Shown here: positions 26,845 through 57,520 of the stretch, piece by piece
Layout of the letters: the number at the start of each line of letters is the position of its first letter
How positions within the stretch are numbered: position 1 is the stretch's first letter
Source: Rhodospirillales bacterium
Lineage (GTDB): Bacteria > Pseudomonadota > Alphaproteobacteria > CACIAM-22H2
Assembly (NCBI GenBank): GCA_016794005.1
Contig: JAEUKY010000383.1
Coordinates: forward strand, 370-64,369
DNA length: 64,000 bases
Direction of reading: 5' to 3'
Made by a program: the position numbers and the translations under genes
The notes under the pieces: generated by a model
Told to the model about the DNA's origin: nothing
What the model saw: the letters and a program-made list of their open reading frames with translations, nothing else
Database searches by the model: none

Positions 26845-27036
26845 ATCGGGGAGCTTCAATGCCCTTGGTTTCCACTCCTTTCCCTTCGTTTCCGGAAATT
26901 ATGGAAACTGCCATTGATATCATTTAATAACTGGAAATCTGGGGGACTGGGGGTCGCAGGTTCGAATCCTGTCGCTCCGACCAAATCGACTAGATAAAAC
27001 AAGGCCCTGGCGAGTGATCGCCGGGGCCTTTCGTTT
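26845..27036 (+). repeat. copy B of the tRNA-Pro 3'-half-containing repeat element
   Basis: Leader 26845-26938. tRNA-like part 26939-26983: cuggggg acugg ggguc gcagg uucgaau ccugu cgcuccg a cca. Terminator hairpin 27001-27030. Confidence 0.85.
27001..27036 (+). terminator. intrinsic-terminator-like hairpin closing repeat copy B
   Basis: 13-bp stem aaggcccuggcga/ucgccggggccuu (one G.U), loop guga, followed by ucguuu. Confidence 0.6.
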
Positions 27037-27049
27037 GGAAACTGAGGAC

Positions 27050-27095
27050 GGGAAATTGACTGGGGGGCGTAGGTTCGAGCCCTGCGGCTCCGACA
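27050..27095 (+). repeat. decayed partial copy (B2) of the tRNA-Pro-like 3' module
   Basis: gggaaattgactggggggcgtaggttcgagccctgcggctccgaca aligns with ctggaaatctgggggactgggggtcgcaggttcgaatcctgtcgctccgacca of copy B, with about 10 substitutions or indels. Confidence 0.6.
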
Positions 27096-27114
27096 ACATC
27101 TCTCCTGGGAGCCA

Positions 27115-28599
27115 TTACTTCCGCGCGGGGGATCGCGCTCGCCACTCCCGCCAGAACGGCCAGACGAAACATGCGGCCGCGACGAGCAGCAGGCCGAGCG
27201 AGCCCGGACGGGTCACGAGTGGCCACATGGAACCGTCTGAAATCATAAGAGCCGAGCGCAGCTTCGCTTCTGCCATCGGTGCAAGCACGAACCCGATCAC
27301 AAACGGGGCAAGCGGGAAGCGCGCCAGCTCCATCGCCAGCCCGACGAGCCCGAACAGCAGCATGATCCATACGTCCGAAACCTGTCCGTCGACCGCGAAG
27401 GCGCCGACGATGCAGAACACGACGACGATCGGGAACAGGATCGCACGGGGAACAAGCATCAGCCGAGCGAAGACGAGCACGCCGGCAGTCATCAGAACGT
27501 ACATCGCGACATGCGCGACGAGATGTGTGGCCATGATCGTGTTGACGATCTCGGGATTCGTCGAAAACAGCAGCGGGCCCGGTCGCAGGTTGTGCATGAC
27601 TAGGGCCGCAAGCAAGATCGCGTCCGCGATCCCGCCTGGAATCCCGAGAGCCAGAAGGGGGATCAGGGAGCCGCCGGTCGTCGCGTTGTTGGCGCTCTCG
27701 GCGGCGACGATCGCCTCTTCGCTGCCGGTGCCGAACTCCTCGGGTGTTTTCGAAACGTTTTTTGCGACCGTGTAGGCGACGATCGACGAGACGGCCGAAC
27801 CAACGCCAGGGTGGATTCCGATCCATACCCCGATCAGCGACGAGCGCAGCATGTTCCAGCCGTGCACGACATAGTCGCCGAGCCGCAGGAAAACGCCGCG
27901 CATCGACGCTCGGATATGCTCGTTTCCTTGTTCGATATGCATTGTGTCGGCAACGAGCTGGGACATCGCGAACAAGCCGATGACAACGGGTAGGAGCTGG
28001 AAGCCGTTGGTCAGTGCTTCGATACCGAAGGTCAGGCGAACAATGCCGGAAGTCTGGTCGACGCCCGGCATGGCGACGAGCACACCGAGCAGTGCAGAGA
28101 TCATTCCTTTAAGGAATGAACCGCGGCTGAGGGAGGAAATGAGCACGAGTGCTGTAAGCACGAGCGCAAAGTTTTCCCACGGGCCCAGCAGCACGGCGAG
28201 ATCGGCGACAGGCCGAGTCAGCAGAACGAGGAAGAGCCAGCCTACAAATCCGCCGACGATCGAACCGGCATTGCCTAGACCGAGAGCCCGCCCGGGAAAG
28301 CCTTTCTTTGCGAGTGGGTAGCCGTCGAGCGTGGTCATGACCGCGTTCGGTTCACCGGGAATGCGCATCAGCGTCGCGGTCACGAGCCCGCCCGAGATGC
28401 CGCCCACGAACATAGAAATCAGCAGCACGATCGCGTTGGTTGGTGCCATCGAGTAGGTGAAGGGCAGAGTCAATGCCATCAGCATGCCGGCGGTGATGCC
28501 TGGCATGACCCCGACGGCGATGCCGATCGTCACGCCGACCATCATGATCAGGAACGGCAGTGGCGTGGCGAGATTGAGGAACGCGTCCGCGAGCGTCAT
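27115..28599 (-). CDS. tctA: tripartite tricarboxylate transporter, large permease TctA
   Basis: ORF as given. Long polytopic protein with TctA-family motifs (GVMPGITAGM..., ESANNATTGGSLIPLLALGIPG). Confidence 0.9.
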   Translation of the reverse strand: MTLADAFLNLATPLPFLIMMVGVTIGIAVGVMPGITAGMLMALTLPFTYSMAPTNAIVLLISMFVGGISGGLVTATLMRIPGEPNAVMTTLDGYPLAKKGFPGRALGLGNAGSIVGGFVGWLFLVLLTRPVADLAVLLGPWENFALVLTALVLISSLSRGSFLKGMISALLGVLVAMPGVDQTSGIVRLTFGIEALTNGFQLLPVVIGLFAMSQLVADTMHIEQGNEHIRASMRGVFLRLGDYVVHGWNMLRSSLIGVWIGIHPGVGSAVSSIVAYTVAKNVSKTPEEFGTGSEEAIVAAESANNATTGGSLIPLLALGIPGGIADAILLAALVMHNLRPGPLLFSTNPEIVNTIMATHLVAHVAMYVLMTAGVLVFARLMLVPRAILFPIVVVFCIVGAFAVDGQVSDVWIMLLFGLVGLAMELARFPLAPFVIGFVLAPMAEAKLRSALMISDGSMWPLVTRPGSLGLLLVAAACFVWPFWREWRARSPARK

Positions 28600-29108: not shown

Positions 29109-29120
29109 GCCCTTCGCGCC

Positions 29121-30071: not shown

Positions 30072-30127
30072 CGGACTTCCCCCCTTTATGGATTTGATGG
30101 TGAGTATTGGGTTTCGGCGGCAGTCGG

Positions 30128-31537
30128 TCAAGCAAGCCGCGATACGCGGCCGATCGCATCGAGCTTCGCGTCGGCGAGATATCCATACCTGTTGACCCAG
30201 ATCTGCCCGCCGGAAGCGTTCCACGCGATCCGGCAGCGTTCCTCGAAATCGGCAACCGGCCCATAGCCGTGCGCCAACGCGTAGACCGGAACGCGGCCGG
30301 CCGCGTGGCGGGCAGCCTCGATCTTCGCGGTTTGCGCCATGGCGCCGACGGGATGCATTTCCTCCGGTTCCGGATAGCGCCAGTCGGCAAGCCGTGCCGG
30401 CCCCGGCCCGTCGCCAATGCCGAACAGGCGCGCGATGCCACGGCCAAGATTGGGGTCGCTCGCCAGATTCGGGTTCGCCGCCGCGATGGTGTCAGCCCAG
30501 GCTCGAACCATCATCGGCCAGTGCATGGTGTAGAGCTTGACCGACACGCCGTCGCAAACCCCGTCGAGCGCGTCGAAATCCAGTCCGCTGAGATGCGTCC
30601 ACGGCGGCGGAAAGGCGTTTGGAACCAGCTTCATGTGGCCCGCACCGGCGTCGTCGAGCGCCTCGCGGAACGTCCGGATGATCTCGTTCGAAAGTACTGC
30701 CTTGAACCTCAGCCATGCGGCAAGTCCCGGCGTGTCGCCGAAAAGCATTTCGACCGGAAGCTTGCCGCTCGCCCACGCAGCGAGATCGCCGGCGGTGAGG
30801 CCGCCCAGAAGGTGCGTGCGAAGTTCTGCCGCCGCAGCCCGCATCGCGCCGAAGTCGAACTCCAGTCGCGCCGCCGCTGCTTCGGCGTGCGTGCCGAAAT
30901 CGAAAAAGGCGCCGTCGAGCGAATAAGGCGGATATTCGGGCCAGTCGACGCGCAGCCCGTCGATCTCCGGATAGGTTCCGACGAGGTCGCGGACAAGTGC
31001 ACGCGCGTAGGCGCGGATATGAGGGCTCGCGAGTGACGCGTTGTTGTCGACGCGGACGGCCGGCGACGAGCCGTCCGGCAAGCGCGGCCGGTCGTCCTCC
31101 TCCGGTCCACCGAACTGGACGCGGTAACCAGGCGGGATGGCCGCCTGTATCTGGAGATAGACCTCAAGGCCACGTGCCTTCGCGGCGCGGATGCTGTCCG
31201 CGATGACGGGTCCCTGCGCGGCCGTCAGCTCGTCGGCAGAAGGCGGCCGATAGCGCAGTCCTTTGTAGAGTGCGGCGTCCGGCACGAAGCTCGGCGAGGT
31301 TCGAACGAAAAGTTCGCGACGGCCCCAGAGCGGACGATCCAGCAGGCGGACCTTTCCGGCACCGGCGTCGGCCGGCGGCTCGCGCGACCCGGTTCCATCT
31401 GGTGCCGGCATCATCACATAAGGGGACGTCGCGATCGCAGTTGCGCCGGCCCGGTCGACGAGATTGTCGAGCGCCGCTTCGACGCCTTCGTTCTGAAAGA
31501 ACTCGGGGAAAATCGTGATACCGACGAAGCGTGTCAT
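30128..31537 (-). CDS. hypothetical protein (family not recognised; possibly TIM-barrel glycosidase-like)
   Basis: ORF 30128..31582 trimmed to MTRFVGITIF, whose ATG overlaps the sulfatase stop (ATGA). Ordinary, non-repetitive amino-acid composition. I could not assign a family. Confidence 0.55.
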   Translation of the reverse strand: MTRFVGITIFPEFFQNEGVEAALDNLVDRAGATAIATSPYVMMPAPDGTGSREPPADAGAGKVRLLDRPLWGRRELFVRTSPSFVPDAALYKGLRYRPPSADELTAAQGPVIADSIRAAKARGLEVYLQIQAAIPPGYRVQFGGPEEDDRPRLPDGSSPAVRVDNNASLASPHIRAYARALVRDLVGTYPEIDGLRVDWPEYPPYSLDGAFFDFGTHAEAAAARLEFDFGAMRAAAAELRTHLLGGLTAGDLAAWASGKLPVEMLFGDTPGLAAWLRFKAVLSNEIIRTFREALDDAGAGHMKLVPNAFPPPWTHLSGLDFDALDGVCDGVSVKLYTMHWPMMVRAWADTIAAANPNLASDPNLGRGIARLFGIGDGPGPARLADWRYPEPEEMHPVGAMAQTAKIEAARHAAGRVPVYALAHGYGPVADFEERCRIAWNASGGQIWVNRYGYLADAKLDAIGRVSRLA

Positions 31538-33021
31538 GCCTGTTCCTTGTCCAGCCTGTTCTGTTCGGGTTTCAGATCCCACCGATGGTGATCAGCCGGC
31601 CGGACGCTGCGCGCCCAGGCGCCGATGACGTCCTTGTCAGCCCGGCGTGCGCGCATACGCGCATCGACGGCGACGGGATCCCAGTCGGCGAGCAGGCGGC
31701 GTTCGAGGTCGTCGCGGATCGTGCGATGGGTGGCGCTTTCAGCGAGATCCCGCATTTCGTTCGGATCGGCGACGAGATCGAAGAGTTGCGGCCTATGGCC
31801 GTGATAGTAAATGAGCTTCCATCCATTTTTCCGGATCATGCGCTGTCGCACGGCATCTCCGCCGGTCCACAGCGGAATCTCATCCGTGCAGTACTCCGAG
31901 AAGGTTTCGTCGACCCACCTGGCGGCGGGATCGCGCGCCACGCCAAGGAAGCTGTGCCCCTGTCCGTTCGGCAGCGGCGTGCAGGCCATCGCGTCGAGCA
32001 TCGTTGCGGTCACGTCTATCAAATTGACCACCTGCCGTCGGCGCTGTCCGGCTGGAATGCTATTCGGCCAACGCAGGATGAGCGGCACCGCTACGGATTC
32101 CTCGTAGAACGTGTGCTTCCACCAGAGCCCGCGTTCGCCCAGCTGGTCGCCGTGGTCGGAGCTGTAGACCACGAGTGTATCGTTGGCGAGACCGAGCCGC
32201 TCGAGCCGATCGAGGATCTGGCCGATCAGAATATCGAGACGCGTCACCAGCCCGTAATAGGCGGTTCGGGCACGCAGCTCCTCGGCCGGATCCGGGTTGG
32301 CGATCCCACGATCCTTGCGCCACCACGCAAGCCACGGATGTTCGTCTTGCGGCACGGGCAGCTTCGCTGGCCGGACTTTGCCCTCGTACGGGAGATAGTC
32401 TTCGCGCCACGCGACATAGGGCGGATGCGGCAGAATGAATCCTACACTCAGGCAGAAGGGGGCTTCGTCGCCGTTGCGCCTGCGGGTGGCGATCGCGTCG
32501 AGCTCGTCGAGGGCCGCCGCCGCCGCGTCGATGTCCTTCAGCTGGTAGGCACTCTGCCCGATGCCCGAGGCCGTCAGGCTCGCGCGGAACGGATCATTGG
32601 CGTTTTCGAGAACGCCCATACCGTGGCGCGCGACGCCGGCCCAGTTCGGGCTGTGGTCGCCGACCGTGCGGTCGGCAAAGCCGTGCATCTGGTCCGGCCC
32701 CATCGCGTGCAGACGCCCGACGAGAACCGGCCTATATCCGGCGGCACCCATCGCGTGCGGCCATGTCGCGCGATCCGAGGCGAGGAAATCGTCGTTCGTC
32801 CAGCAGTCCTGTGCCGAGGGATGGCGTGCGGTCAGCATCGACATGCGGCTGGGAACGCAGATCGGGGACGGGCAATAAGCGTTGTCGAAGATAACGCCAC
32901 CCGCTGCGAGCCCGTCGAGGGCAGGCGTGCGAACGACCGGATCGCCATAGCATCCGGCGACCGACCTTGCATGCTGGTCGGAGAACAGGAAGAGCAGGTT
33001 CGGGCGTTTCACACGAGTCAT
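31534..33021 (-). CDS. sulfatase (Cys-type, formylglycine-dependent)
   Basis: ORF as given. N-terminal PNLLFLFSDQH and the C-x-P-S-R motif (CVPSRMSMLT). Confidence 0.9.
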   Translation of the reverse strand: MTRVKRPNLLFLFSDQHARSVAGCYGDPVVRTPALDGLAAGGVIFDNAYCPSPICVPSRMSMLTARHPSAQDCWTNDDFLASDRATWPHAMGAAGYRPVLVGRLHAMGPDQMHGFADRTVGDHSPNWAGVARHGMGVLENANDPFRASLTASGIGQSAYQLKDIDAAAAALDELDAIATRRRNGDEAPFCLSVGFILPHPPYVAWREDYLPYEGKVRPAKLPVPQDEHPWLAWWRKDRGIANPDPAEELRARTAYYGLVTRLDILIGQILDRLERLGLANDTLVVYSSDHGDQLGERGLWWKHTFYEESVAVPLILRWPNSIPAGQRRRQVVNLIDVTATMLDAMACTPLPNGQGHSFLGVARDPAARWVDETFSEYCTDEIPLWTGGDAVRQRMIRKNGWKLIYYHGHRPQLFDLVADPNEMRDLAESATHRTIRDDLERRLLADWDPVAVDARMRARRADKDVIGAWARSVRPADHHRWDLKPEQNRLDKEQA

Positions 33022-34136: not shown

Positions 34137-34268
34137 TCGTGGTTCCTCGCCATCGACCGGCCGATGTTCCGTCAGATCGCATCGGCTCTCGTCCGAAAAC
34201 AATGGCACACGACGCCCTGTGCGAGTCAATAATTGTGCCGATGCGGCAGTGGACCGCTGGAGAGCGAC

Positions 34269-35450: not shown

Positions 35451-35750
35451 ATGGCCGGTTGGAACGCATTGGCCGTCGATCCGCGCGACAATGTCGCTGT
35501 ACTGCTGCGCGACGTCGCTGCTGGCGACGAAGTTCGGATTCGCATCGGTGCGGCGGACGAGCGGCTGGTTGCGGCGGAGGCCGTTCCGCTCGGCCACAAG
35601 ATCGCTCGTCGGCAGATCGAGAACGGGGCGCAAATCGTGAAGTACGGCGAAGTCATCGCCAGCGCCACGACCGGAATTTCGGCCGGACAGCACGTGCATG
35701 TGCACAATGTCGCCAGCAACCGCGCAAAGGTCCGTCAGACCAACCCGTGA
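35451..35750 (+). CDS. UxaA-family SAF-domain (small) piece
   Basis: ORF as given. DNVAVLLRDVAAGDEV...PLGHKIARRQIENGAQIVKYGEVIA matches the N-terminal SAF domain of fused UxaA/GarD. Confidence 0.7.
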   Translation: MAGWNALAVDPRDNVAVLLRDVAAGDEVRIRIGAADERLVAAEAVPLGHKIARRQIENGAQIVKYGEVIASATTGISAGQHVHVHNVASNRAKVRQTNP

Positions 35751-47165: not shown

Positions 47166-47188
47166 GCGGGAGGGCCTAGCGAAAATGT

Positions 47189-47225
47189 TTGACCGTCTTG
47201 TCCAAATGTTTATACATTTGGACAA
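47189..47225 (+). promoter_or_regulatory. sigma70-like promoter (TTGACC-N16-TATACA) overlapped by a perfect 12-bp inverted repeat; candidate GntR operator
   Basis: TTGTCCAAATGT-TTAT-ACATTTGGACAA at 47198-47225, ending 18 nt upstream of the GntR start codon. Confidence 0.6.
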
Positions 47226-47243
47226 ATAATCGGGGATGCACCG

Positions 47244-48050: not shown

Positions 48051-50188
48051 GTGGCCTTGCGATCCGCACCGATTCGAGTGGCCGGTCGGGTTCTGCGGCG
48101 CTCGCCGGCCCAAATCCGGTCGTCGCTGGCATGGACGGCACGTGGACGGCGACGTTCCGCGCCGGGTCCACCGAGCTGCCTGCGGGAAGCGCCATCGCAT
48201 TCGTCCGCCGCTGGCCCAGCGACTGGGACATCTCGCAGTGTCATTCGCCCGGCCAGCCCGGCTACACCGTGCTTTCCTTCAGCTACCCGTGCCGCCATCG
48301 CTGGCGTACCCGCCGGTCGATCGAGTGGCATCCGTTCGACCACGTGTTCGAGATCGACCTGCTCGATGCGCTGCCACCCGGCGCGGAAGTGACGATGCGC
48401 TTCAACTCGCGCGCGCAGACCTTCATCGAGGAGGCCTCGCCGATGGCCGTGCGTGTGCGCGCTGGCGACGGCGAATGGACGGAAGTGGAGCAACTCGTCG
48501 TCGAAGTCGTGGGGGCCGCCGCGCATCGCGGCGTACTGATCGCGCCAAGCGACGCCGTTTGCGGCGAGGGCTTCGAGCTTGCCTACCGTGTCGAGGACGA
48601 GTGGGGGAATCCTGCTTCGCCGCCGGCCCGGCCGGCGATCGAGGGGGCGTCGGTCGAACCGTTGCCCGATCTGCCAGGCGTGTTGCGCTGGACTGCACGG
48701 ATCGACAAGGCCGGGATCGTGCGACTTGTCGCAGGCGGTGGGCTGCCCGCGATTTCAAATCCGATAAGCGTTCATCCGACCCCGCCCGCCCGCCGCATCC
48801 GTTGGGGCGATATCCACGCGCAGTGCCTGATCGGTTGCGGTGCGCGGACTATCGACGCGTTCTTCCGCCATGCGCGCGATTTCGCGCGGCTCGATTTTTC
48901 CAGCCATCAGGCGAACTGCTTCCTTGTCTCTGGCCCCGAATGGAAAGAGACCGAGGAGGTGACGGCGCGCCACGATGCGCCGGGTAAGTTCGTGGCCCTG
49001 CTCGGTCTCGAATGGTCGGCCGACACGGCCAATGGCGGCGACCGGAACCTCTATTTTCCCGGAGATACGGCCCAAATCACCCGCTGCAGCCACGAGTACG
49101 TGGACGACAAGTCGGACGTGTCGTCGGACTTGCCGCAGGCCGAGGACCTTCACGCCAAATACCGGGGAACGAACACGCTGATTGGGCTGCATGTCGGTGG
49201 ACGTACGACCGATCTGCGTCGGCACGAGCCGACGCTCGAACGCCTGATCGAAGTTCATTCGACACACGCGACGTCGGAGTGGTTCATTTTCGAGGCGCTT
49301 GACCGGGGATACCGGATGGGCGTGACGGCTGGCAGCGACGGCGTGGATGGTCGGCCGGGTGCAAGCCATCCAGGCCATCAGGCTGTCCGCAATGTGCGCG
49401 GCGGACTCGTCGCGGCACCTCTGACGGCGTTGTCCCGCGAAGGGCTATGGGAAGCGTTGATGGCGCGCAACTGCTACGCCACCAACGGCGAACGCATCCG
49501 CCTCGAGTTCACGGCCGACGGCAAGCCGATGGGCAGCGAGTACGATGCGCCGATTCCACCGGCGCTGTCGATCGCGATCGAGGGGACAGGCCCCTTGGAA
49601 TCCGTCGAGATTTTCCGTGGCTCGAAGCCGATCCATTCGATTCTTCTGCGCGAAGTTGGTTCGCTGCTGTCCGACCGCGTGCGCATCGCCTGGAAGGGGG
49701 CGACGGCGCCGGGGAATTTCTCACGGGCGCGCATGCGATGGGACGGCAGCGCGACGCTGTCGGCCGGATCCTTCGTGGATGCCGAAGGCTATGCCTTCGA
49801 TACGCCCGATGAAGGCCTGACACTCGTCGATAAGCGTCGCCTCGAATGGCGTTCGGCGACCGGCGGCGACTGGGATGGCGTGATCGCGCGCGTCTCGGCA
49901 CCGCTCGACGCGGTGCTGACGGTGCAGACGGCCCAGATATCGGCGACGGTGCCGGTCGGCTCGCTTGCCGACGGACCGACGCGTCTTGCCGACGACGTAC
50001 CGCTGCGCGAGCTCGAGATAAGCCGTCTGCCTGTCGACCTTGGCCCACAGTCTTGGATCGGACAGTTCCGCGACCCGGCCGGTCGCCCCGGATGGAACGC
50101 CTATTGGGTGCGAGTGCGCCAGTGGAACGGTGCGTTTGCCTGGTCGAGCCCGATCTTCGTGCGCCTGCCGGAAAAGGTGCCGCGATGA
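48047..50188 (+). CDS. DUF3604-like protein (function unknown)
   Basis: ORF as given, ATGA overlaps on both sides. WGDIHAQ, LGLEWS..GGDRN, HVGG, EVHS, GSDG..GRPGASHPG and YATNGERI resemble the DUF3604 pattern as I remember it. Confidence 0.55.
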   Translation: MSGLAIRTDSSGRSGSAALAGPNPVVAGMDGTWTATFRAGSTELPAGSAIAFVRRWPSDWDISQCHSPGQPGYTVLSFSYPCRHRWRTRRSIEWHPFDHVFEIDLLDALPPGAEVTMRFNSRAQTFIEEASPMAVRVRAGDGEWTEVEQLVVEVVGAAAHRGVLIAPSDAVCGEGFELAYRVEDEWGNPASPPARPAIEGASVEPLPDLPGVLRWTARIDKAGIVRLVAGGGLPAISNPISVHPTPPARRIRWGDIHAQCLIGCGARTIDAFFRHARDFARLDFSSHQANCFLVSGPEWKETEEVTARHDAPGKFVALLGLEWSADTANGGDRNLYFPGDTAQITRCSHEYVDDKSDVSSDLPQAEDLHAKYRGTNTLIGLHVGGRTTDLRRHEPTLERLIEVHSTHATSEWFIFEALDRGYRMGVTAGSDGVDGRPGASHPGHQAVRNVRGGLVAAPLTALSREGLWEALMARNCYATNGERIRLEFTADGKPMGSEYDAPIPPALSIAIEGTGPLESVEIFRGSKPIHSILLREVGSLLSDRVRIAWKGATAPGNFSRARMRWDGSATLSAGSFVDAEGYAFDTPDEGLTLVDKRRLEWRSATGGDWDGVIARVSAPLDAVLTVQTAQISATVPVGSLADGPTRLADDVPLRELEISRLPVDLGPQSWIGQFRDPAGRPGWNAYWVRVRQWNGAFAWSSPIFVRLPEKVPR

Positions 50189-50931
50189 TCGAGAACAACC
50201 TCGCGCTCGCGACGGCCGATGGCCAGATACCGGTTTTCGTGGTGTGCCCGGACGAGGGCGGACCGCATCCGGTCGTCCTGTTCTACATGGATGCGCTCGG
50301 AATCCGCGAGGAGCTGCGCGACATGGCGCGACGCTTCGCGTCCGCCGGCTATTACGTGATGCTGCCCAACCTTTTCTATCGTTGGGGCGGGCCTAGCTTC
50401 GATCCGAGGCCGTTGGCGCAGGGAATCCTCGATCCGAAGATGGTGGAACTAAACGGCGCGCTGAGCATGGCGATGACGGCACGGGATACCGGTGTGCTGC
50501 TCTCGCACGCTGCTTCAGACCCGGCCGCCCGGCTCCCGGCTGCCGCGGTCGGCTACTGCATGGGCGGGCGCCACGCGATCGGTGCGGCAGCCGCATATCC
50601 GGGGAAGGTACGCGCCTTCGCGTCGCTGCATGGCGGGCGACTGGTGAACGACACGCCGGACTCCCCGCATCTTTCCCTCGCGAAGACAGTGGCGGCGGAA
50701 GCCTATTTCGGCTGGGCTGACAACGATCCGACGGCACCGCCCGAACACATGCGCGCCGTCGAGGTCGCCCTTGCGGCGCGCGGCGGTCGTCATCGCATCG
50801 AGCTTCACTCGGGTGCAGAGCACGGATTCACGTTCCCCGAACGCTACTGCTACCACAAGACCGCGGCCGAACGAGTCTGGGCGCGGCTCTTCGCGCTGTT
50901 CGGCCGCAACCTGCACAAGAACGACGCTTAG
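50185..50931 (+). CDS. dienelactone hydrolase family protein
   Basis: Trimmed from ORF 49846..50931 to MIENNLALAT. DLH-like core (GYCMGG nucleophile region, HGF near the C-terminus). Confidence 0.8.
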   Translation: MIENNLALATADGQIPVFVVCPDEGGPHPVVLFYMDALGIREELRDMARRFASAGYYVMLPNLFYRWGGPSFDPRPLAQGILDPKMVELNGALSMAMTARDTGVLLSHAASDPAARLPAAAVGYCMGGRHAIGAAAAYPGKVRAFASLHGGRLVNDTPDSPHLSLAKTVAAEAYFGWADNDPTAPPEHMRAVEVALAARGGRHRIELHSGAEHGFTFPERYCYHKTAAERVWARLFALFGRNLHKNDA

Positions 50932-50947
50932 GGAAGGACGCACGAGG

Positions 50948-51922
50948 ATGACGACACGTTTCGCGATGATTGGCTGCGGTGGTTTCTCACGCCGTTACCA
51001 CGTGCCCACGCTGCTGGCCGATGCGGGCGTCAAGCTCGTCGGTATCTTCGATCCGGTCCCGGCGCAAGCGGTGACCGACCTTGCCGGCAAGACCGGCGCC
51101 AAACTTGTCCGGAGGATTGATGAGCTTCCGGACGCAGATGCGGTCTTGGTCACAACGCCTCACGCGCTGCATGCCGGACACGGCGAATACGCTCTCTCGC
51201 GCGGCTGGGCGACGCTCGTCGACAAGCCATTCGTGATGAAAACGGACGACGCGCGCCGACTGATCGTGACGGCTGCCTCGAAGAAATTGCTGAATGCCGT
51301 TGCCTTCAATCGACGGCTCGATGCCGGCTGCCGACGCGCACGCGAGATCATCCGTGCAGGCGGTATCGGAGCCGTGCAGTTCGTCCAGACAATCCAGCTC
51401 GGCTACGAGAAGGCCGGCTGGTTCCTCGACCCGGCGCTCGGTGGCGGCGGGGCCTATACCGGGCGCGGCACGCACATGGCCGATATCGTGCCGTGGCTGA
51501 TCGGCGCCAAGCCCACGCAGGTGCGCAGCCGCCTTCGCGCCGGTCCCGCCGGTCGTGCCGATCTCGGCGGCTTCATCGAGATCTCGTTCTCCGGAATCGA
51601 ATGCCAGATCTCCTGCATCGAGGAGGGCTGGCACATGTGGGACGAGGTCCGGATCTTTGGCGAGGACGGCATGATCGAGTTGCGCCGGCCGCTGAACATG
51701 CCGACCGGGTGGCACATGGTCTGGCAGAGCAAGCGCGGCTCGGCGCGCGAGGAATTGGCCGCCGCTCCGAACGAAGGCATGATCACGGCAGAGTTCCTCG
51801 CCGCAATACGAACCGGTTCGCCGGTTTCTTGCAGCTTTGCTGACGCGCTGACATCCGTGCAGATCGTCGAAGCGGCGTTCGAATCGGCCGCTTCCGGCTC
51901 CAAGACAATCTCGATCTCGTGA
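50948..51922 (+). CDS. Gfo/Idh/MocA-family oxidoreductase
   Basis: Trimmed from ORF 50771..51922 to [18 protein letters not shown] (Rossmann N-terminus). Confidence 0.8.
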
Positions 51923-51932
51923 CGGGCGGGCG

Positions 51933-52682
51933 ATGGCGGCTGCAATCGAAATCGGCGGACTGGCGAAAAATTTCGTGAACGATGCGGGGCCGCCCGTGCT
52001 CGGTGCGGTCGATCTGACGATCGCGGAGAACGAGTTCGTTGTGCTGCTCGGCCGATCCGGATGCGGCAAGACGACCCTGCTCAACATCGTCGCCGGCCTC
52101 GAACAACCAAGTGCGGGCATCGTGCGCGTCGATGGTGCGCCGGTAACGGGGCCAGGTGCGGGTAAGGGCATGGTCTTCCAGCAGGGAGCCCTGTTTCCTT
52201 GGCTCACCGCGCGGCGGAATATCGAGTTCGCGGCCGTCAATCGTGGTGTGGCATCCGAAGCGGCGGGAAAGCTCGCGGACGAGCTGCTAGCGCTCGTCGG
52301 GCTCGCGGGTTCGGAACACAAATTCCCGTTCGAGCTTTCCGGTGGCATGCAGCAGCGCGTGGCAATCGCACGCGCGCTGGCGCTCGATCCCAAGATCCTG
52401 CTGATGGACGAGCCGTTCGGCGCACTCGACGAGATCACCCGCAACGAGATGCAGGACGAGTTGCTCCGTGTCTGGGCGCAGCGACGCAAGACGGTAGTGT
52501 TCGTTACGCACTCTATCTGGGAAGGCTTGATCCTTGCCGATCGCGTGCTCGTCATGGCACCGCGGCCGGGCCGTTTCGTACTGGAGAGGCGCATCGACTT
52601 GCCGCGTCCGCGCCGGCGCAGCGATCCCACGCTCGTGGCGCTCTACGACGAGATCTGGACCTGCCTGCGGGGCGAACCGTGA
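51933..52682 (+). CDS. ABC transporter ATP-binding protein (NitT/TauT family)
   Basis: ORF as given. [28 protein letters not shown]. Confidence 0.9.
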
Positions 52683-53470
52683 GGAGCCGCCTCGCCGAAT
52701 GGCTGGTGCCGATCGGCGCGCTGGCGCTGTTCCTGGCGCTGTGGGAGTTCGCTGCGGCGGCCGGCTGGCTGCGCCCGATCCAGTTTCCGCCGCCGAGCAA
52801 GCTTGCGCGTACGGCCGTCACGCTTGCTTTCGACGGCTTCCCCGAAGGCATCACGCTGTGGGTGCATGCCGGTATCACGATCCAGCGCATCCTCGCCGGA
52901 CATATCCTCGCCGTGGCGCTTGCCGTCCCGCTTGGCCTACTGACCGGCAGCCGGCCGCTGCTCGACCAAATGACCGCACCTATCGTCGCCTTTTGCCGTT
53001 CGGTCGCCACGCTGAGCCTTCTGCCGCTGGCCATCGTCTGGTTCGGTACGGGTGAGGGAGCGAAGATCTTCCTTATCGGTTATGGCTGCTTCTGGGTCAT
53101 GTTTTCGTCGAGCATCGCAGCAGTCAAGCTCGTCGATCCGGTCCTGATCCGCGCCGCGCGCACGATGGACGCCGACGAGAAGACCATCTTCCGGCAGGTG
53201 ATCCTGCCCGCTTCGCTGCCGCGCCTGCTTTCGGGTGCACGCGTTGCGCTGGGCGTGGGCTTCATGGTGATCGTGGGCGCCGAGATGATCGGTACGATCC
53301 GTGGCCTTGGCTCGCTGATCATGGAGGCGCGCACTTTCTATCGGACCGACATCACGATGGTCGGCATGCTGTGCATCGGCGCATTCGGCCTTTGCGTCAT
53401 GTTCGCGCTCGCTCGGATCGAGGCATGGCTGGTCCCTTGGCAGGCGAAGCAGGAGGCGCAGCAGCAATGA
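52679..53470 (+). CDS. ABC transporter permease (NitT/TauT family)
   Basis: Within ORF 52199..53470. GTG overlaps the ATPase stop (GTGA). Polytopic, with an EAA-like loop ([21 protein letters not shown]). Confidence 0.8.
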
Positions 53471-54222
53471 AGTTCGCCGAGCGCTTTGCCGGCCTGATCG
53501 GCGTCGTCCTTTTCCTCGGGCTATGGGAGATCGCCGCACGCTTTGGCTGGCGCAATCCCGCGATCATGCCTGCCCCCAGCCAAGCCGTGTGGATGGCGCT
53601 CGCGACCATCCCGCCTTTGACGCTGATCGAACATGTCGCGATCAGCTTGTGGCGCATCCTGGCGGGGTTCGCGCTGGGCGCGTCGGCCGGAGTGGCGCTC
53701 GGGATCGCCGCCGGCTGGTATCGGCCGGTGGCGCTGATCAGCCGGCCGTTCGTCGAGATCCTTCGGCCGATCCCGCCGCTCGCCTGGATCCCGATCGCCA
53801 TCGTCTGGTTCGGTCTCGGCGAACCTTCCAAGATTTTCGTCATCTTCCTGGGAACGTTCTTTCCGGTCTTCACCAGTGCGACGCGCGGCATGGCCTCAAT
53901 CCATCCGTCGATCCTGCGCGCCGCGCGCACGATGGATGTCGATGGTGTGCGCCTGCTGGCCAAGGTTGCCGTCCCTGCCGCAATGCCCGACATCGCTACG
54001 GGGCTGCGTATCGGCTTCGGCCTAGGTTTCGGCGTTCTTGTCGCTGCCGAACTCATCGCGGCCGGACGCGGCATGGGTCATCTCGTCATGGAGGCGCGCC
54101 AGCTCGGGCAGCTGGGTATCTCCGTGTTCGGCATATTCCTGATCGGACTTGTCAATCTCGTCGCAGACCAGCAGCTCGCTGCAGCCATACGCCGGACCGT
54201 CGGGCGCTGGCACCGTTTCTGA
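53467..54222 (+). CDS. ABC transporter permease (NitT/TauT family)
   Basis: Within ORF 53371..54222, ATGA overlap. Paralogue of the preceding permease (LRAARTMDVDGVRLLAKVAVP). Confidence 0.85.
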   Translation: MKFAERFAGLIGVVLFLGLWEIAARFGWRNPAIMPAPSQAVWMALATIPPLTLIEHVAISLWRILAGFALGASAGVALGIAAGWYRPVALISRPFVEILRPIPPLAWIPIAIVWFGLGEPSKIFVIFLGTFFPVFTSATRGMASIHPSILRAARTMDVDGVRLLAKVAVPAAMPDIATGLRIGFGLGFGVLVAAELIAAGRGMGHLVMEARQLGQLGISVFGIFLIGLVNLVADQQLAAAIRRTVGRWHRF

Positions 54223-54246
54223 AAACAGTGAAAGAAGGAGGCTAAA

Positions 54247-55281
54247 ATGCGTCGTCGTACGTTCCTTTCGGCCACCGCAGCCGTCGCGCTGGCGCCTGCC
54301 ATCGTCCGCGCGCAGGCGCGGCCGGAAATCTCCAGGCTGGGGCTTGGTTTCGGCCTCGATCCGGTCTTCGCACCCCATATCGTCGCGATGCAGAAAGGCT
54401 GGTTGCGCGATGCCGGCTTCACCGAGATCACCACGCCGAGCTTCACCAGCGGCGCGCTTGCGGGCGAGGCGCTGATCGCAGGGCAAATCCACCTGTGGAC
54501 GCCGGGCAACCTGCCGCCGATCTCGATGGCAAATTCTGGCGTGCCGGCCGTCGTGCTCGGTACCAACTGCATCGCCGCCAAGGCCGAACAGCTGATCGTG
54601 CGCAACGACGCAAACGTGACCAAGCCCGAGGATCTCTACCGCATCAAGATCGGCTTGCTTGCCGGTTCGACGGCAAGCGCCACGCTGCACAACCTCGCCA
54701 AGCGCTATAGCCTCGACGAATCGAAGCTGCAGGTCGTCAACATGCCGCCTCCCGAGCAGCTTGCGGGCCTGACGAGCAACAACATCCAGGCGCTGCTGTG
54801 CTGGCAGCCCTGGGCGCATAACGCGCTGAAGCTCGGCAGTACCACGATGCTGCACTCGGGTACCAACAGCGGCTTCGCCGCCAACAAGGGTGCTGCGGCG
54901 GCTGTCTCGGCGACGCGTTCGATCTTCGTGTCGAGCGAGGAATTCGTGCGCAAGAACCCGAACGCAACACGCATCCTTATGGCCGTGCTCGTGCGCGGGC
55001 AAAAGTACGTTGCCGATCCGGCGAACCGGACGGAAGTGCTCGATCTCGTTTCGGCGCAAACCAAACAGGATCGTGCTCTCGTCGAAGCGATTTGGGGCGA
55101 CTACGCGTTCAACCCAGCATTCGACGACGGCTATGTTGCCGACATGGAATCGATGAGTGGATATCTCGTCGCGTCCGGCCGCCTCAAGTCGCCCAAGCAC
55201 CCGCTCGACTATACGTTCTCCGATCCGGTCGCTGCGGCAGATCCCGCTCTTGTGAGGCTGCCGGGCCGCTGGAAGGCCTAA
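54247..55281 (+). CDS. ABC substrate-binding protein (NMT1/SsuA/TauA-like)
   Basis: ORF as given. Tat signal MRRRTFLSATAAVALAPAIVRA. GAAGGAGG SD. Confidence 0.75.
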   Translation: MRRRTFLSATAAVALAPAIVRAQARPEISRLGLGFGLDPVFAPHIVAMQKGWLRDAGFTEITTPSFTSGALAGEALIAGQIHLWTPGNLPPISMANSGVPAVVLGTNCIAAKAEQLIVRNDANVTKPEDLYRIKIGLLAGSTASATLHNLAKRYSLDESKLQVVNMPPPEQLAGLTSNNIQALLCWQPWAHNALKLGSTTMLHSGTNSGFAANKGAAAAVSATRSIFVSSEEFVRKNPNATRILMAVLVRGQKYVADPANRTEVLDLVSAQTKQDRALVEAIWGDYAFNPAFDDGYVADMESMSGYLVASGRLKSPKHPLDYTFSDPVAAADPALVRLPGRWKA

Positions 55282-55283
55282 GA

Positions 55284-56309
55284 ATGGACCGCGTCGGGAT
55301 CGCGTTCGTCGGCACGGGCTTCATCGCCGACTATCATCTGGCAGGATTGAACGCGGTCCCGCGCGCGGACGTGCGTATGGTGGTCGGGCGCGACGCTGCA
55401 AAAGCGGCGGCGGTCGCAGCCCGTTTCGGCATACCGGAGTCAAACACGGATTTCGCTGCAACGCTCGAAAGGCGGGATATTCATGCGGTCGTTATCGCCA
55501 CGCCCGATGACATGCATGAGGAGATGGCCGCTCTGGCGGCGGCTGCCGGCAAGGCAATTTTGTTGCAAAAGCCGATGGCGGCTGACAGTGCGGCTTGCCG
55601 GCGCATTATTGCAGCCGCTAAGGTCGCGAAGATCGACCTGCAGATCAGTTTCATGCACCGGTATTTCGAGGAGTTCCGGATGGCGAAGGAACTCGTCGCC
55701 ACTGGTGCGATCGGCGACGTGACGAGCCTGCGCATCCGCAACGCCACGCCGGGGCCTGATTGGGCGGATTGGTTCTTTAAGAAGTCGCGCGTTGCCGGCG
55801 GCGTTGTGTTGCAACTCGGCGTACATGGCATCGATCTGCTGCTGCAGATGGGTGGCGCGGTAGCACAGGTGTCGGCAACGGCGGCGATCCTGAGACCGGA
55901 ACGGACGCTCGCTGACGGGCGCCGGGTGAAAGTCGAGAATCCAGACAGCGCTTGGGCGGTTTACTCGCTGGCGAACGGAACAGCAGCTTCGCACGAAATG
56001 TCAATGATCGAAGCAAAAGGCTGCGACCGGTTCCGATTCGAGATCTACGGGACCAAGGGTACGATCTGGCTGCGCAGCGAACTTGGTCCACTTGCCGTCA
56101 GCCGGAGCGGCCGCCCGGGATGGGAGATGCCTGAAGTTCCAATGTTGCCGTTCGGCAAGCGCCAGCATCAGGCATGGATCGACGGGATCGTCGGTGCGGC
56201 CTCGCCGGAGCGAACCGCGCAAGACGCGCTCGACGGTATCTTGATCGCCGAGGCGATCGGCCGGTCGAGTGTCTCGGGCGGGGCACGCGTCGCCGTGGAG
56301 GCGACATGA
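55284..56309 (+). CDS. Gfo/Idh/MocA-family oxidoreductase
   Basis: Trimmed from ORF 55092..56309 to MDRVGIAFVGTGFIADYH. Confidence 0.85.
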   Translation: MDRVGIAFVGTGFIADYHLAGLNAVPRADVRMVVGRDAAKAAAVAARFGIPESNTDFAATLERRDIHAVVIATPDDMHEEMAALAAAAGKAILLQKPMAADSAACRRIIAAAKVAKIDLQISFMHRYFEEFRMAKELVATGAIGDVTSLRIRNATPGPDWADWFFKKSRVAGGVVLQLGVHGIDLLLQMGGAVAQVSATAAILRPERTLADGRRVKVENPDSAWAVYSLANGTAASHEMSMIEAKGCDRFRFEIYGTKGTIWLRSELGPLAVSRSGRPGWEMPEVPMLPFGKRQHQAWIDGIVGAASPERTAQDALDGILIAEAIGRSSVSGGARVAVEAT

Positions 56310-57325
56310 TCCGGATCGCGATCCTCAGCTTCGCGCACTACCATGCGAATTTCTGGGTCGAGGCGTTCCAGTCACTCCCTGAAATCGAGGTCGTAGCGAT
56401 CTGGGACGACAACGTCGTGCGAGGTCGCGAGGCGGCCGGGCGCTTCAAGGTGCGGTTCGCCCCAGATCTCGACGCGGCGATTGACGCGGCCGACGCTGTT
56501 GCGATTTGCAGCGAGACGATCAATCACGCTCCGCTGATCGAACGAGCGCTCGCCGCCAAGCGGGCTGTGCTGTGCGAGAAGCCGCTCGCCGCCAACCTCG
56601 CCGAGGCCGCTCGCATCGAGAAGGCCGTGCGCGCTGCCGGCATGCCGTTCATGCAGAGCTTCCCCAAGCGGTTCGACCCTGTGTCGCACGAGCTCAAGCG
56701 TCTGGTCGATACAGGCGAACTCGGAAAGATCCGGCTAGTGCGCATCCGGCACGGGCACTTCTATGGGCTCGATCCCGATTTCCGCGAACGGTGGTACGTC
56801 GACCCGGCGTTGTCGGGTGGCGGCGCGCTGCTTGATGAAGGCGTACATGCTGCCGACCTGCTGTGCTGGCTGTTCGGCTTGCCGGCCGGCGTCACGGCGA
56901 ACGCTTCGTCGTCACTGGGCCTGAAGGTCGAGGATCAGGCAATCGCTATCTTCGACTACGTCGGCGGCATGCTGGCGGAGGTGACGTCGAGCTTCACTTT
57001 CGCGGCTGCTGACGCGTCGATCGAGATCTATGGATCAGAAGGGACGGCGATCGTCAGCGGCGTCGACCTTGCGTCGCGCGACATTACACCGTCGGGTCAT
57101 TTGAAGATATTCCATCGCACCCAGAGCGAGCGCGTATGGAATATTTCGCCTATCGTGCCACGCTTCAAGCTCGGCCAGTTCCACCACCAGAATGCCATCG
57201 CGTTTGCCGATTCTTTGCAACGGAAAGTGCAGCCACCGGTCACGTTGGATGATGGCCTGCGCTCGGTGAAGTTGATCTTTAGGGCCTATGAGGCCATCCG
57301 GAGTGGAGTCCGGACCCAAATTTGA
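56306..57325 (+). CDS. Gfo/Idh/MocA-family oxidoreductase
   Basis: Trimmed from ORF 56174..57325 to MIRIAILSFAHYHANF. ATGA overlap. Confidence 0.85.
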   Translation: MIRIAILSFAHYHANFWVEAFQSLPEIEVVAIWDDNVVRGREAAGRFKVRFAPDLDAAIDAADAVAICSETINHAPLIERALAAKRAVLCEKPLAANLAEAARIEKAVRAAGMPFMQSFPKRFDPVSHELKRLVDTGELGKIRLVRIRHGHFYGLDPDFRERWYVDPALSGGGALLDEGVHAADLLCWLFGLPAGVTANASSSLGLKVEDQAIAIFDYVGGMLAEVTSSFTFAAADASIEIYGSEGTAIVSGVDLASRDITPSGHLKIFHRTQSERVWNISPIVPRFKLGQFHHQNAIAFADSLQRKVQPPVTLDDGLRSVKLIFRAYEAIRSGVRTQI

Positions 57326-57333
57326 ACTGCCCG

Positions 57334-57520
57334 ATCGGAAGATACTCTCGGCCCTTAGTTTCCATTGGGTTCCCTTAATTGCCGAAAATTATGGAAACTG
57401 ACATTGAAATCATTGAGTTTCACAAAGTCTGGGGAACTGGGGGGCGCAGGTTCGAATCCTGTCGCTCCGACCAATTCGACTAACCAACAAGGCCCTGGCG
57501 AGCGATCACCAGGGCCTTTT
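57334..57520 (+). repeat. copy C of the tRNA-Pro 3'-half-containing repeat element (best preserved)
   Basis: Leader 57334-57428. tRNA-like part 57429-57473: cugggga acugg ggggc gcagg uucgaau ccugu cgcuccg a cca. Terminator hairpin 57489-57520. Confidence 0.85.
57489..57520 (+). terminator. intrinsic-terminator-like hairpin closing repeat copy C (could also serve the convergent crp/fnr gene)
   Basis: aaggcccugg...ccagggccuu stem followed by uu. It lies 56 nt beyond the stop of the minus-strand regulator gene. Confidence 0.6.

What the first reader, a model, noticed from the sequence alone, without database searches (positions are those of the whole stretch)
26955..57474. 30.5-kb sulfatase-rich catabolic block bracketed by 30-nt perfect direct repeats, with no recombinase
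Copies B and C provide identical 30-nt direct repeats around 27115-57325. That block holds two TTT transporters, two ABC importers, three sulfatases, two sugar-acid-type dehydratases, three Gfo/Idh/MocA oxidoreductases, DUF3604- and DUF4432-like proteins, a dienelactone hydrolase, and LysR and GntR regulators. Direct repeats derived from a tRNA 3' end are the classical boundary of genomic islands. However, I find no integrase, excisionase, transposase or conjugation gene, and GC content looks like the flanks.

Mentally removing the block places the truncated SbtA-like bicarbonate permease next to the Crp/Fnr regulator and the beta-carbonic anhydrase, which is a plausible ancestral inorganic-carbon neighbourhood. 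The block could be an old, immobilised island. It could also be a segment mobilisable in trans by an integrase encoded elsewhere.
Basis: partly seen in the sequence, partly recalled or inferred. Interest (0 to 1): 0.65.

Follow-up and report, generated by a model that had tools for sequence, protein, structure and literature searches.

The report
tRNA-Pro-derived repeats bracketing a sulfatase block
The 30-base repeats are real, but each is only the core of a roughly 190-base unit (a conserved arm, the last 46 bases of a proline tRNA gene, and a hairpin) that looks like the scar of site-specific integration, and I found no recombinase, no foreign composition and no sign of recent movement.

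Summary
CGCAGGTTCGAATCCTGTCGCTCCGACCAA occurs at 26955-26984 and 57445-57474, and no shuffle reproduces it. It brackets a block of sulfatase, TTT-transporter, ABC-transporter, dehydratase and Gfo/Idh/MocA genes. No recombinase domain turned up in the ORFs scanned, and composition matches the flanks.

The repeats are not bare 30-mers. Each is the core of a 150-190-nt composite unit present three times on the + strand (A about 13.9 kb, B about 26.9 kb, C about 57.4 kb). A fourth, arm-less fragment, B', lies at 27058-27100.

Each unit has three parts:
- an arm of about 90-105 nt with no tRNA similarity, carrying phased GTTTCC repeats;
- the last 46 nt of a tRNA-Pro(GGG) gene, starting exactly at the anticodon loop;
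- a hairpin.

This is the anatomy of an attR-type junction of an anticodon-loop-targeting integrative element. My best reading (about 0.45) is a head-to-tail array of integrase-less segments, similar to cis-mobilizable elements.

Evidence against that reading: no intact tRNA or integrase in 64 kb, and native composition. In a relative, the block's two ends lie in the same order without repeats. No empty site was found. The proposed ancestral sbtA-crp-can neighbourhood is not seen in the closest relative.

The finding is ordinary to moderately interesting.

The parts
13861..14059 (+). Unit A: a diverged copy of the composite repeat. Arm, then the tRNA-Pro-like 3' part from 13970 (CTGGGAC...CCGACCAT) with a degenerate T-arm, then its own unrelated GC-rich hairpin.
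   Evidence: nhmmer E=1.4e-49. Alignments. Against B: arm 71%, core 85%, downstream about 49% (unrelated).
26850..26938 (+). Arm of unit B: no tRNA similarity. Carries three GTTTCC-type direct repeats at a 10-nt period, an inverted GGAAAC, the invariant AAATTATGG, and two tandem CATTGA(A/T)AT repeats.
   Evidence: Read directly from the sequence. Invariant columns across six copies from three genomes. No match in the plasmid or phage collections.
26939..26984 (+). Core of unit B: the last 46 nt of a tRNA-Pro(GGG) gene, running from anticodon loop CTGGGGG through the variable loop, T-arm and 3' acceptor strand to discriminator A and CCA. It contains the 30-nt perfect repeat at 26955-26984.
   Evidence: 93.5% identity over 46 nt to the Sphingomonas tRNA-Pro(GGG) gene called by ARAGORN. 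Alignment. Exact repeat.
26998..27045 (+). Hairpin (terminator-like) after unit B, plus TTTGGAAACT. Shared with the Tagaea copy (downstream segment 93%) and with C (downstream segment 71%; 91% over the 34-nt hairpin).
   Evidence: Repeat family D13, 91% between B and C. Folding z-score -3.5. Segment identities. It does not pass the simple terminator scan, because the T-run is too weak.
27058..27100 (+). B': an additional arm-less, diverged tRNA-Pro-like 3' fragment (ACTGG GGGGC GTAGG TTCGAGC CCTGC GGCTCCG A CAA). It ends 14 nt before the tctA stop.
   Evidence: nhmmer E=3.3e-4 against model positions 117-159. Alignment. Also present in the 99.4%-identical contig L017.
27115..57325 (.). The 30.2-kb catabolic block: tctCBA twice, three sulfatases, MR/MLE and GD_AH dehydratases, LysR, GntR, two ABC importers, DUF4432, a DUF3604-like protein, a dienelactone hydrolase and three Gfo/Idh/MocA genes.
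   Evidence: Pfam. Homologous stretches in relatives.
57340..57428 (+). Arm of unit C. It starts about 15-25 nt after the stop of the last Gfo/Idh/MocA gene.
57429..57474 (+). Core of unit C: tRNA-Pro(GGG) 3' part (anticodon loop CTGGGGA). It contains the 30-nt perfect repeat at 57445-57474.
   Evidence: core identity B against C is 44/46.
57486..57519 (+). Hairpin after unit C, lying between the convergent Gfo/Idh/MocA operon and crp.
   Evidence: Family D13. Folding.
14136..26163 (.). The A-B interval (12.8 kb), the neighbouring segment of the array: ECF sigma factor, NDH-2-like oxidoreductase, LysR, SDR, patatin, acetoacetate decarboxylase, cyclase, MCP, AhpC/TSA, HAD and a catalase-related protein. 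No recombinase domain found.
   Evidence: Pfam. Gene calls for L017.
26440..26790 (+). SbtA-like pseudogene remnant. Only the N-terminal third or so survives, with stops and frameshifts. It ends at the left edge of unit B.
   Evidence: Pfam Sbt_1 at 1e-7 on the ORF 26617-26775, matching profile positions 78-113 of 308. Three-frame translation.
57576..58265 (-). crp/fnr-family regulator (FtrB-like), the first gene to the right of unit C. Homology with relatives ends exactly at its stop codon.
   Evidence: Pfam and NCBIfam FtrB. BLAST against L008 and L009.

Best explanation
The two 30-nt repeats are the best-preserved cores of a composite repeat of about 150-190 nt. Each unit is the right-hand (attR-type) junction of an integrative element whose tyrosine recombinase crosses over in the anticodon loop of a tRNA-Pro(GGG) gene. 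The junction consists of an element-derived arm of about 100 nt with phased protein-binding-like repeats, fused at the anticodon loop to a displaced 46-nt tRNA 3' fragment and its downstream hairpin.

Three co-oriented units, plus an older arm-less fragment, within 44 kb suggest a head-to-tail array built by repeated site-specific recombination at the same site (accretion). The 12.8-kb A-B interval and the 30.2-kb sulfatase block B-C would be two of its segments.

Neither segment now carries an integrase, so the block behaves like a cis-mobilizable element. It is inert on its own. It could move only if a cognate integrase were supplied from elsewhere, or it could be deleted by RecA recombination between the 30-nt-perfect, roughly 170-nt repeats.

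Shown: the anatomy of the units, the tRNA-Pro(GGG) origin and the anticodon-loop boundary, the co-orientation, the absence of recombinase domains in the ORFs scanned, and the native composition.

Inferred: that the arm is an integrase/excisionase binding arm, that the array arose by site-specific integration, and that the block could still move.
For: 1. The tRNA-like part matches a genuine tRNA-Pro(GGG) gene from the anticodon loop to CCA. Similarity stops sharply on the 5' side of the loop. An anticodon-centred attP site is the commoner class in the Islander database (2083 of 3919 islands; PMC4383910). That paper also describes the displaced 3' fragment as the marker of an island end.
2. In all six copies from three genomes, conservation covers the arm and the core up to about 12 nt past the anticodon loop. 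What follows differs: the Azospirillum-like MAG copies have a decayed T-arm and a different downstream sequence. This is what a half-site made of arm plus crossover region would show.
3. The arm has three GTTTCC repeats at a 10-nt period, an inverted GGAAAC and two tandem CATTGAA repeats. This resembles arm-type or Xis-type site architecture; that comparison rests on my own knowledge.
4. RNA structure does not explain the arm's conservation. RNAalifold's covariation term is unfavourable and the MAG copies fold no better than shuffles (z about 0).
5. All copies in the window are on the + strand and clustered: three plus B' in 44 kb. The MAG has two co-oriented copies on one 47.7-kb contig.
6. 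B against the Tagaea copy is 91% identical over 190 nt while the flanks are unrelated. The unit therefore moves, or is moved, independently of its surroundings.
7. A truncated sbtA pseudogene ends at the left edge of unit B, so that edge is a recombination junction.
8. Integrase-less segments that retain att sites, and tandem accretion, are documented phenomena: CIMEs (PMC5704250) and partial-tRNA-separated arrays in tycheposon islands (bioRxiv 2020.12.28.424599).
Against: - The window has no intact tRNA gene, and the window covers all but 848 bp of its 64,848-bp contig. A further segment of at least 13.9 kb left of A would also have to lack both a tRNA and an integrase.
- No integrase, integrase pseudogene, excisionase or transfer gene was found in the ORFs scanned.
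- Composition is indistinguishable from the flanks.
- The block's two ends sit on one contig of a relative in the same order and orientation, without any repeat.
- The relatives closest on the crp side have no tRNA-Pro next to crp. The simple model predicts one if C were the original displaced 3' end.
- The two MAG copies share the same decayed tRNA part and part of the downstream sequence (148 nt, 92.6%), and B and C share the hairpin. Copies within a genome therefore look like copies of the whole unit, not independently displaced fragments.
- The arm has no match in the phage, plasmid or viral collections.
- No polymorphism was seen in the only near-identical contig, L017.
Confidence: 0.45

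Rival explanations
1. The unit is a low-copy, lineage-restricted intergenic repeat, possibly of old att origin, that is copied as a whole. The sulfatase block is ordinary, vertically inherited chromosomal DNA that happens to lie between two copies. Any role of the repeats is passive: they are substrates for RecA-dependent deletion, inversion or Campbell-type integration, and no site-specific recombinase is involved.
For: - Copies within a genome share arm, core and downstream sequence as one unit. B and C share the hairpin (91%). The two MAG copies share the same decayed tRNA part over a 148-nt match (92.6%).
- The left boundary is sharp and common to all six copies.
- No integrase and no intact tRNA in 64 kb.
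- Native composition.
- The block ends are linked in a relative without repeats.
- Operon-end synteny breaks are the rule among relatives even where no repeat is present.
Against: - No mechanism is known for copying a 190-nt unit without terminal inverted repeats or target duplications.
- Copy number is very low: one to three per genome sampled, and only chance hits in the metagenome and viral scans.
- Strict co-orientation and clustering are not expected from passive dispersal.
- 91% identity over 190 nt, in unrelated flanks, with a MAG assigned to the genus Tagaea points to mobility. How closely that MAG is related to the window's organism is not known.
Confidence: 0.3
2. Each unit is a small transcription unit, either a small RNA or a short leader. 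The phased GTTTCC repeats would be response-regulator-type activator sites, the invariant AAATTAT a -10 element, and the transcript would consist of an AU-rich 5' part, a G-rich stretch, a T-arm-derived hairpin and a terminator. The block would then simply lie between two paralogous small-RNA genes.
For: - Direct repeats at a 10-nt period upstream of an invariant A/T-rich hexamer.
- The window and Tagaea copies fold into a hairpin plus a terminator-like stem with z of -3.0 to -3.6.
- Paired changes preserve the terminator stem among B, C and Tagaea.
- An invariant ATG opens a conserved 8-9-codon ORF (METAIEIIE) in four of six copies; this was read from alignment A2.
Against: - No Rfam family reaches its gathering score, and only weak non-specific hits appear at E up to 10.
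- No sigma-70-like promoter or scan-positive terminator.
- RNAalifold's covariation term is unfavourable.
- The MAG copies keep the arm but have no terminator and no excess structure (z about 0).
- The exact tRNA-Pro 3' half from the anticodon loop to CCA is better explained by recombination than by small-RNA evolution.
Confidence: 0.1

Closest known systems
tDNA-integrated genomic islands with an anticodon-centred attP (Islander definition; Williams-type sublocation A)
   Same: A displaced 3' tDNA fragment starts in the anticodon loop and runs to CCA. The fragments are co-oriented. Element-specific sequence abuts the fragment. Multiple fragments in tandem suggest serial integration.
   Different: There is no intact tRNA gene at either end of the array within the contig and no integrase in any interval. 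Composition is not atypical. The sequence downstream of the fragment (the hairpin) is also repeated.
Cis-mobilizable elements (CIMEs) and tandem accretion, e.g. the ICESt1/ICESt3-related elements of Streptococcus thermophilus
   Same: A segment bounded by att-like direct repeats that lacks integration and transfer genes, and a tandem arrangement of several such segments.
   Different: No remnants of ICE or IME genes show a decay origin. No cognate ICE or integrase is known. The cargo looks native and is partly collinear with a relative's chromosome. Mobility is untested.
Tycheposon-containing islands of Prochlorococcus
   Same: Arrays of cargo modules for nutrient acquisition, separated by partial tRNA copies next to tRNA-linked hot spots, with degenerate partial tRNAs scattered in the island.
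   Different: Tycheposons carry their own tyrosine recombinase and replication module. None is present here. The lineage is different (Rhodospirillales-like alphaproteobacterium), and the intervals here are 12.8 and 30.2 kb.
ssrA-linked tandem genomic islands of Dehalococcoides (vinyl-chloride reductase islands)
   Same: Catabolic or respiratory cargo in tandem islands delimited by direct repeats of the 3' end of a small stable-RNA gene.
   Different: According to my reading of the abstract only (PMC3146451, listed), those islands sit at the intact single-copy ssrA gene. Neither an intact target gene nor an integrase is seen here.

Membership tests
tDNA-integrated genomic island (Islander criteria, PMC4383910) | An intact, regenerated tRNA or tmRNA gene at one end of the island | tested here: not met
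   ARAGORN finds no tRNA or tmRNA in the 64-kb window. The window is all but 848 bp of its contig.
tDNA-integrated genomic island (Islander criteria, PMC4383910) | A displaced fragment of the same tDNA at the other end, in the same orientation | tested here: met
   Four co-oriented tRNA-Pro(GGG) 3' fragments (A, B, B', C).; tRNA identity.
tDNA-integrated genomic island (Islander criteria, PMC4383910) | An integrase gene inside the island | tested here: not met
   Pfam scans of the ORFs called across 1-64000 give no Phage_integrase, recombinase, resolvase or transposase domain.
tDNA-integrated genomic island (Islander criteria, PMC4383910) | The crossover sublocation is one of the canonical ones (anticodon loop, or T loop/junction) | tested here: met
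   tRNA homology starts at C32 of the anticodon loop CTGGGGG in A, B, C and the Tagaea copy.
Cis-mobilizable element (CIME; PMC5704250) | [quoted passage not shown] | tested here: met
   No such domains in 27115-57325 or 14136-26163.
Cis-mobilizable element (CIME; PMC5704250) | Retains functional attL and attR sites | tested here: inconclusive
   Two att-like units flank the block (core 44/46 identical, arms about 70%). Their recombination competence cannot be judged from sequence.
Cis-mobilizable element (CIME; PMC5704250) | Derives from an ICE or IME by decay, and is mobilised by a related incoming element | not testable with these tools
   No ICE or IME remnants were seen. No cognate element was found in the viral, plasmid, phage, genome or metagenome searches with the arm.
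Tycheposon | Carries a tycheposon-type tyrosine recombinase plus a replication or packaging module next to the tRNA | tested here: not met
   None in the window.
Described small-RNA or cis-regulatory RNA family (Rfam 15) | Match at or above a family's gathering score | tested here: not met
   No matches at gathering score for the whole window. Only weak non-specific hits at E up to 10 around unit B.

The most novel reading that the evidence does not exclude
The 190-nt tRNA-Pro-derived unit would be the recombination site of a cassette-like system. A recombinase encoded elsewhere in the genome would join and shuffle large (10-30 kb) integrase-less catabolic modules head to tail, each module bringing one unit. 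This would be analogous in logic to integron cassettes or pdif modules, but at operon-cluster scale and with a tRNA-half-derived site. It would explain arrays without integrases, whole-unit copies, conservation of arm plus core across genera, and native-looking cargo.
Probability: 0.1. Interest if true: 0.75.

Novelty: new variant of a known kind. Interest (0 to 1): 0.35.

Why it matters
If the units are working recombination sites, a 30-kb module for uptake and desulfation of sulfated sugars or sugar acids, and its 12.8-kb neighbour, could be exchanged or lost as blocks without carrying their own recombinase. That would be one route by which catabolic repertoires are reshuffled in Rhodospirillales-like bacteria.

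If they are only scars, the locus is an ordinary decayed integration hot spot. Its main practical point is then that the 30-nt-perfect, roughly 170-nt direct repeats make the block prone to RecA-mediated deletion.

Tried and rejected
- **tRNA and Rfam searches.** ARAGORN finds no tRNA. Rfam gives nothing at gathering score and nothing meaningful with permissive filters around unit B.
- **Promoter and terminator scans.** Negative around B and C.
- **Structure.** RNAalifold on six copies gives no covariation support. Single-sequence folding shows structure only where the tRNA T-arm and the hairpin are present.
- **Pattern scans with the invariant arm motif.** Genome representatives gave three true loci in two MAGs plus chance hits. 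The viral scan gave none. The metagenome scan gave three hits that only match over 27-41 nt, so I treat them as chance.
- **BLAST of unit B against plasmids and phages.** Only the tRNA part matches.
- **Empty-site search through orthologues of crp, the last Gfo/Idh/MocA gene and tctA**. Relatives at 77-85% nt identity break synteny at almost every operon end, so neither an empty site nor a conserved site could be shown. The only near-identical contig has the same junction.
- **Direct repeat of the tRNA-Met 3' end.** This tRNA-Met abuts the block in relative L018. I searched the other end of the block in L019 and found none.
- **Compositional test.** Flat.
- **Permuted or split tRNA idea.** CGGAGCG occurs downstream of C, but the following sequence does not form a D-arm and the motif is absent after B, so I rejected it.
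- **Sigma-54, EcfG, FNR/FixK and CtrA motif readings of the arm.** I compared the arm by eye with consensus sequences recalled from memory. None fits.
- **Arm as the C-terminus of a conserved protein.** Rejected, because the reading frame is closed by a stop in the Tagaea copy.

Full report
**1. The observation**

The longest exact match between the two sites is the 30-mer CGCAGGTTCGAATCCTGTCGCTCCGACCAA, at 26955-26984 and 57445-57474. Allowing three mismatches adds a third, diverged copy at 13987-14015. None of 100 dinucleotide-preserving shuffles produced any match.

- two tctCBA sets;
- three sulfatases;
- one MR/MLE dehydratase and one galactarate/altronate dehydratase;
- LysR and GntR regulators;
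- two ABC importers;
- DUF4432, a DUF3604-like protein and a dienelactone hydrolase;
- three Gfo/Idh/MocA genes.

No recombinase, transposase, excisionase or conjugation domain was found in any ORF scanned across the window. GC content is 64.4% in the block against 63.7-66.1% elsewhere, and tetranucleotide usage does not separate the block from the rest. The truncated SbtA-like gene is real: Pfam Sbt_1 scores 1e-7 on 26617-26775, and the gene carries stops and frameshifts.

**2. What the repeats really are**

The 30-mers are the cores of a much longer repeat. The repeat finder reports a 132-nt family at 13892-14023, 26861-26992 and 57351-57482, plus a repeated hairpin at 26998-31 and 57486-519. 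A profile search finds exactly three full copies (A, B, C), all on the + strand, and one extra partial copy, B', at 27058-27100.

Each unit has three parts:
- **The arm.** About 90-105 nt with no tRNA similarity. It contains three GTTTCC-type direct repeats at a 10-nt period, an inverted GGAAAC, the invariant AAATTATGG, and two tandem CATTGAA repeats.
- **The core.** 46 nt beginning CTGGGGG.
- **A GC-rich hairpin.**

The best database match of the unit is a bona fide tRNA-Pro(GGG) gene in Sphingomonas, confirmed by ARAGORN. Similarity starts exactly at the anticodon loop and runs through the variable loop, T-arm, acceptor strand, discriminator and CCA. It stops sharply on the 5' side of the loop.

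Identity by segment:

| Pair | Arm | Core | Downstream |
|---|---|---|---|
| B vs C | 70% | 44/46 | 71% |
| A vs B | 71% | 85% | unrelated hairpin |

The window has no intact tRNA gene. The window covers all but 848 bp of its contig.

**3. Distribution**

I scanned one representative genome per species with the invariant arm motif. It gave three true loci:
- One is in a MAG assigned to Tagaea (Rhodospirillaceae). It is 91% identical to B over 190 nt, and its flanks are unrelated to the window.
- Two are co-oriented copies on one 47.7-kb contig of an Azospirillum-like MAG.

In the MAG copies, the arm and the core up to about 12 nt past the anticodon loop are 88-92% identical to B. The T-arm, however, is decayed and the downstream sequence differs. 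The two MAG copies share that decayed part with each other (148 nt, 92.6%).

Viral and metagenome scans, and BLAST against plasmids and phages, found nothing for the arm. None of the loci has an integrase or a tRNA within about 2-6 kb of the unit. Their neighbours are ordinary transport and catabolic genes.

**4. Comparative context of the block**

*The crp side.* The closest relative is L008, at 85% nt identity over crp-can-narK-narG. It loses homology exactly at the crp stop. It continues with DsbD_2, DUF2189 and ccoNOQP-fixGHI, with no unit, tRNA or sbtA. A second relative has a glycoside hydrolase and a sugar ABC system there.

*The right end of the block.* The right 11 kb (46308-57325) is conserved at 80-83% nt identity in three relatives. 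In each one homology ends at the stop of the last Gfo/Idh/MocA gene, each has different neighbours, and none has a unit.

*The tctA end.* This is likewise a breakpoint in every relative:
- L018 has tRNA-Met followed by mnmA-isc.
- L023 has MR/MLE followed by a 92-aa integrase fragment.
- L025 has an ABC system.
- A fourth contig has a Gfo/Idh/MocA gene 53 nt away.

*Linkage in a relative.* L018 and L019 come from the same 409-kb contig. There the tctA end and the Gfo/Idh/MocA end lie 54 kb apart, in the same order and orientation as in the window, where they are 30 kb apart.

*The near-identical contig.* L017 (99.4% identity) carries B, B' and the same junction.

Three conclusions follow. The block is an old linkage group of this lineage rather than compositionally foreign cargo. 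Its flanks differ in every genome sampled. The available relatives are too mosaic to show either an empty site or a conserved one.

**5. Interpretation**

A conserved element-type arm fused at the anticodon loop to a displaced tRNA 3' fragment is the anatomy of an attR-type junction of an anticodon-loop-targeting integrative element. The Islander paper describes the displaced fragment as the marker of an island end. It counts anticodon-centred attP sites as the commoner class, 2083 of 3919 (PMC4383910).

Several features fit repeated site-specific recombination at one site (accretion):
- Conservation covers arm plus crossover region across genera, whatever lies downstream.
- The fragments are co-oriented and clustered.
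- B' is a second, older fragment.
- The sbtA pseudogene ends at the edge of unit B.

The present intervals would then be integrase-less, CIME-like segments (definition in PMC5704250; partial-tRNA arrays in tycheposon islands).

RNA-level explanations are weak. There is no Rfam family, no covariation, and no structure in the MAG copies.

Several observations count against the integrative reading:
- The contig has no intact tRNA-Pro and no integrase, so at least three consecutive intervals would all lack one.
- Composition is native.
- No tRNA-Pro lies next to crp in relatives.
- Copies within a genome look like copies of the whole unit, including its downstream part.

For these reasons I put the integrative-scar/CIME-like array at about 0.45. 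A passive whole-unit repeat with RecA-type consequences gets about 0.30, and a small transcription unit about 0.10.

**6.

Three points need correcting:
- The boundary is a 190-nt composite unit in an array of three plus one, not a simple 30-nt direct repeat.
- The 'ancestral sbtA-crp-can neighbourhood' has no comparative support.
- There is no evidence of mobility.

**7. Novelty and interest**

tRNA-fragment-bounded islands, decayed integrase-less islands and tandem accretion are all well known. Three things are unusual here:
- No recombinase domain appears in any ORF scanned across a 57-kb array.
- The same arm is conserved in three genomes and has no match in the viral, phage or plasmid collections searched, or in the metagenome scan.
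- Whole units are repeated.

That makes this a variant of a known kind, of modest interest (0.35) unless the units prove to be active sites served by a recombinase acting in trans.

Noticed in passing
window 26440-26790 (+): SbtA-like bicarbonate-transporter pseudogene. Only about the first third survives, with in-frame stops and a frameshift, and it is cut off at the left edge of repeat unit B. About 280 nt of apparently non-coding DNA (26164-26440) precedes it, and local GC dips to about 61.5%.
   Followed up: partly
window 30128-31582 (-): A 484-aa ORF with no Pfam or NCBIfam hit, sitting between tctC and a sulfatase. A domain-less protein of 469-470 aa sits just upstream of tctC in relatives (L018 and the P0244 contig). 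It is a conserved unknown of this TTT-transporter/sulfatase operon.
   Followed up: partly
alignment A2; window 26900-26927, 57390-57480, 13931-14020: The invariant ATG inside AAATTATGGAAAC opens a tiny ORF. It reads METAIEIIE-stop in the Tagaea and both MAG copies and METAIDII-stop in B, but reads through to about 30 codons in A and C. Six of 12 substitutions fall on third codon positions, which is too few to judge. I saw no clear Shine-Dalgarno sequence.
   Followed up: partly
L018 11708-11782 (-): In a relative (77% nt identity), the tctA end of the homologous catabolic region lies about 230 nt from the 3' end of an intact tRNA-Met gene, next to mnmA and the isc operon. The same block end therefore abuts a tRNA 3' end in two genomes, but a different tRNA in each. 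No tRNA-Met fragment was found in the 10 kb beyond the other end (L019).
   Followed up: partly
L023 13122-13400 (-): A 92-aa Phage_integrase fragment lies about 1.6 kb beyond the tctCBA-MR/MLE module in another relative, near the contig end. No tRNA or repeat unit is nearby.
   Followed up: partly
window 14136-14759 (+): An ECF-type sigma factor gene starts 77 nt after unit A and its hairpin. No anti-sigma factor domain was found in the next gene, which is an NDH-2-like oxidoreductase.
   Followed up: no
window 59272-62064 (+): A 930-aa MFS protein, apparently a fused NarK-NarK nitrate/nitrite transporter, sits upstream of narG (62003 onward). It is preceded by a beta-carbonic anhydrase (58308-59147) and a divergent FtrB-like Crp/Fnr regulator. 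The relative L009 lacks the carbonic anhydrase between crp and narK.
   Followed up: partly
window 48047-50188 (+): The 713-aa 'DUF3604-like' protein matches Pfam DUF3604 only weakly (33 bits, about 50 residues). It also gives a sub-threshold hit to the CehA/McbA metallohydrolase domain (NCBIfam, 34 bits against a cut-off of 80). It is conserved next to GntR and the dienelactone hydrolase in all relatives examined.
   Followed up: no
window 35451-35750 (+): A 99-aa ORF immediately after the GD_AH dehydratase gene. It aligns at the DNA level (about 70%) with a 99-aa SAF-domain (faint hit) gene that lies two genes from the dehydratase in relative L025, so it may be a separate small subunit of the altronate/galactarate dehydratase.
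   Followed up: no
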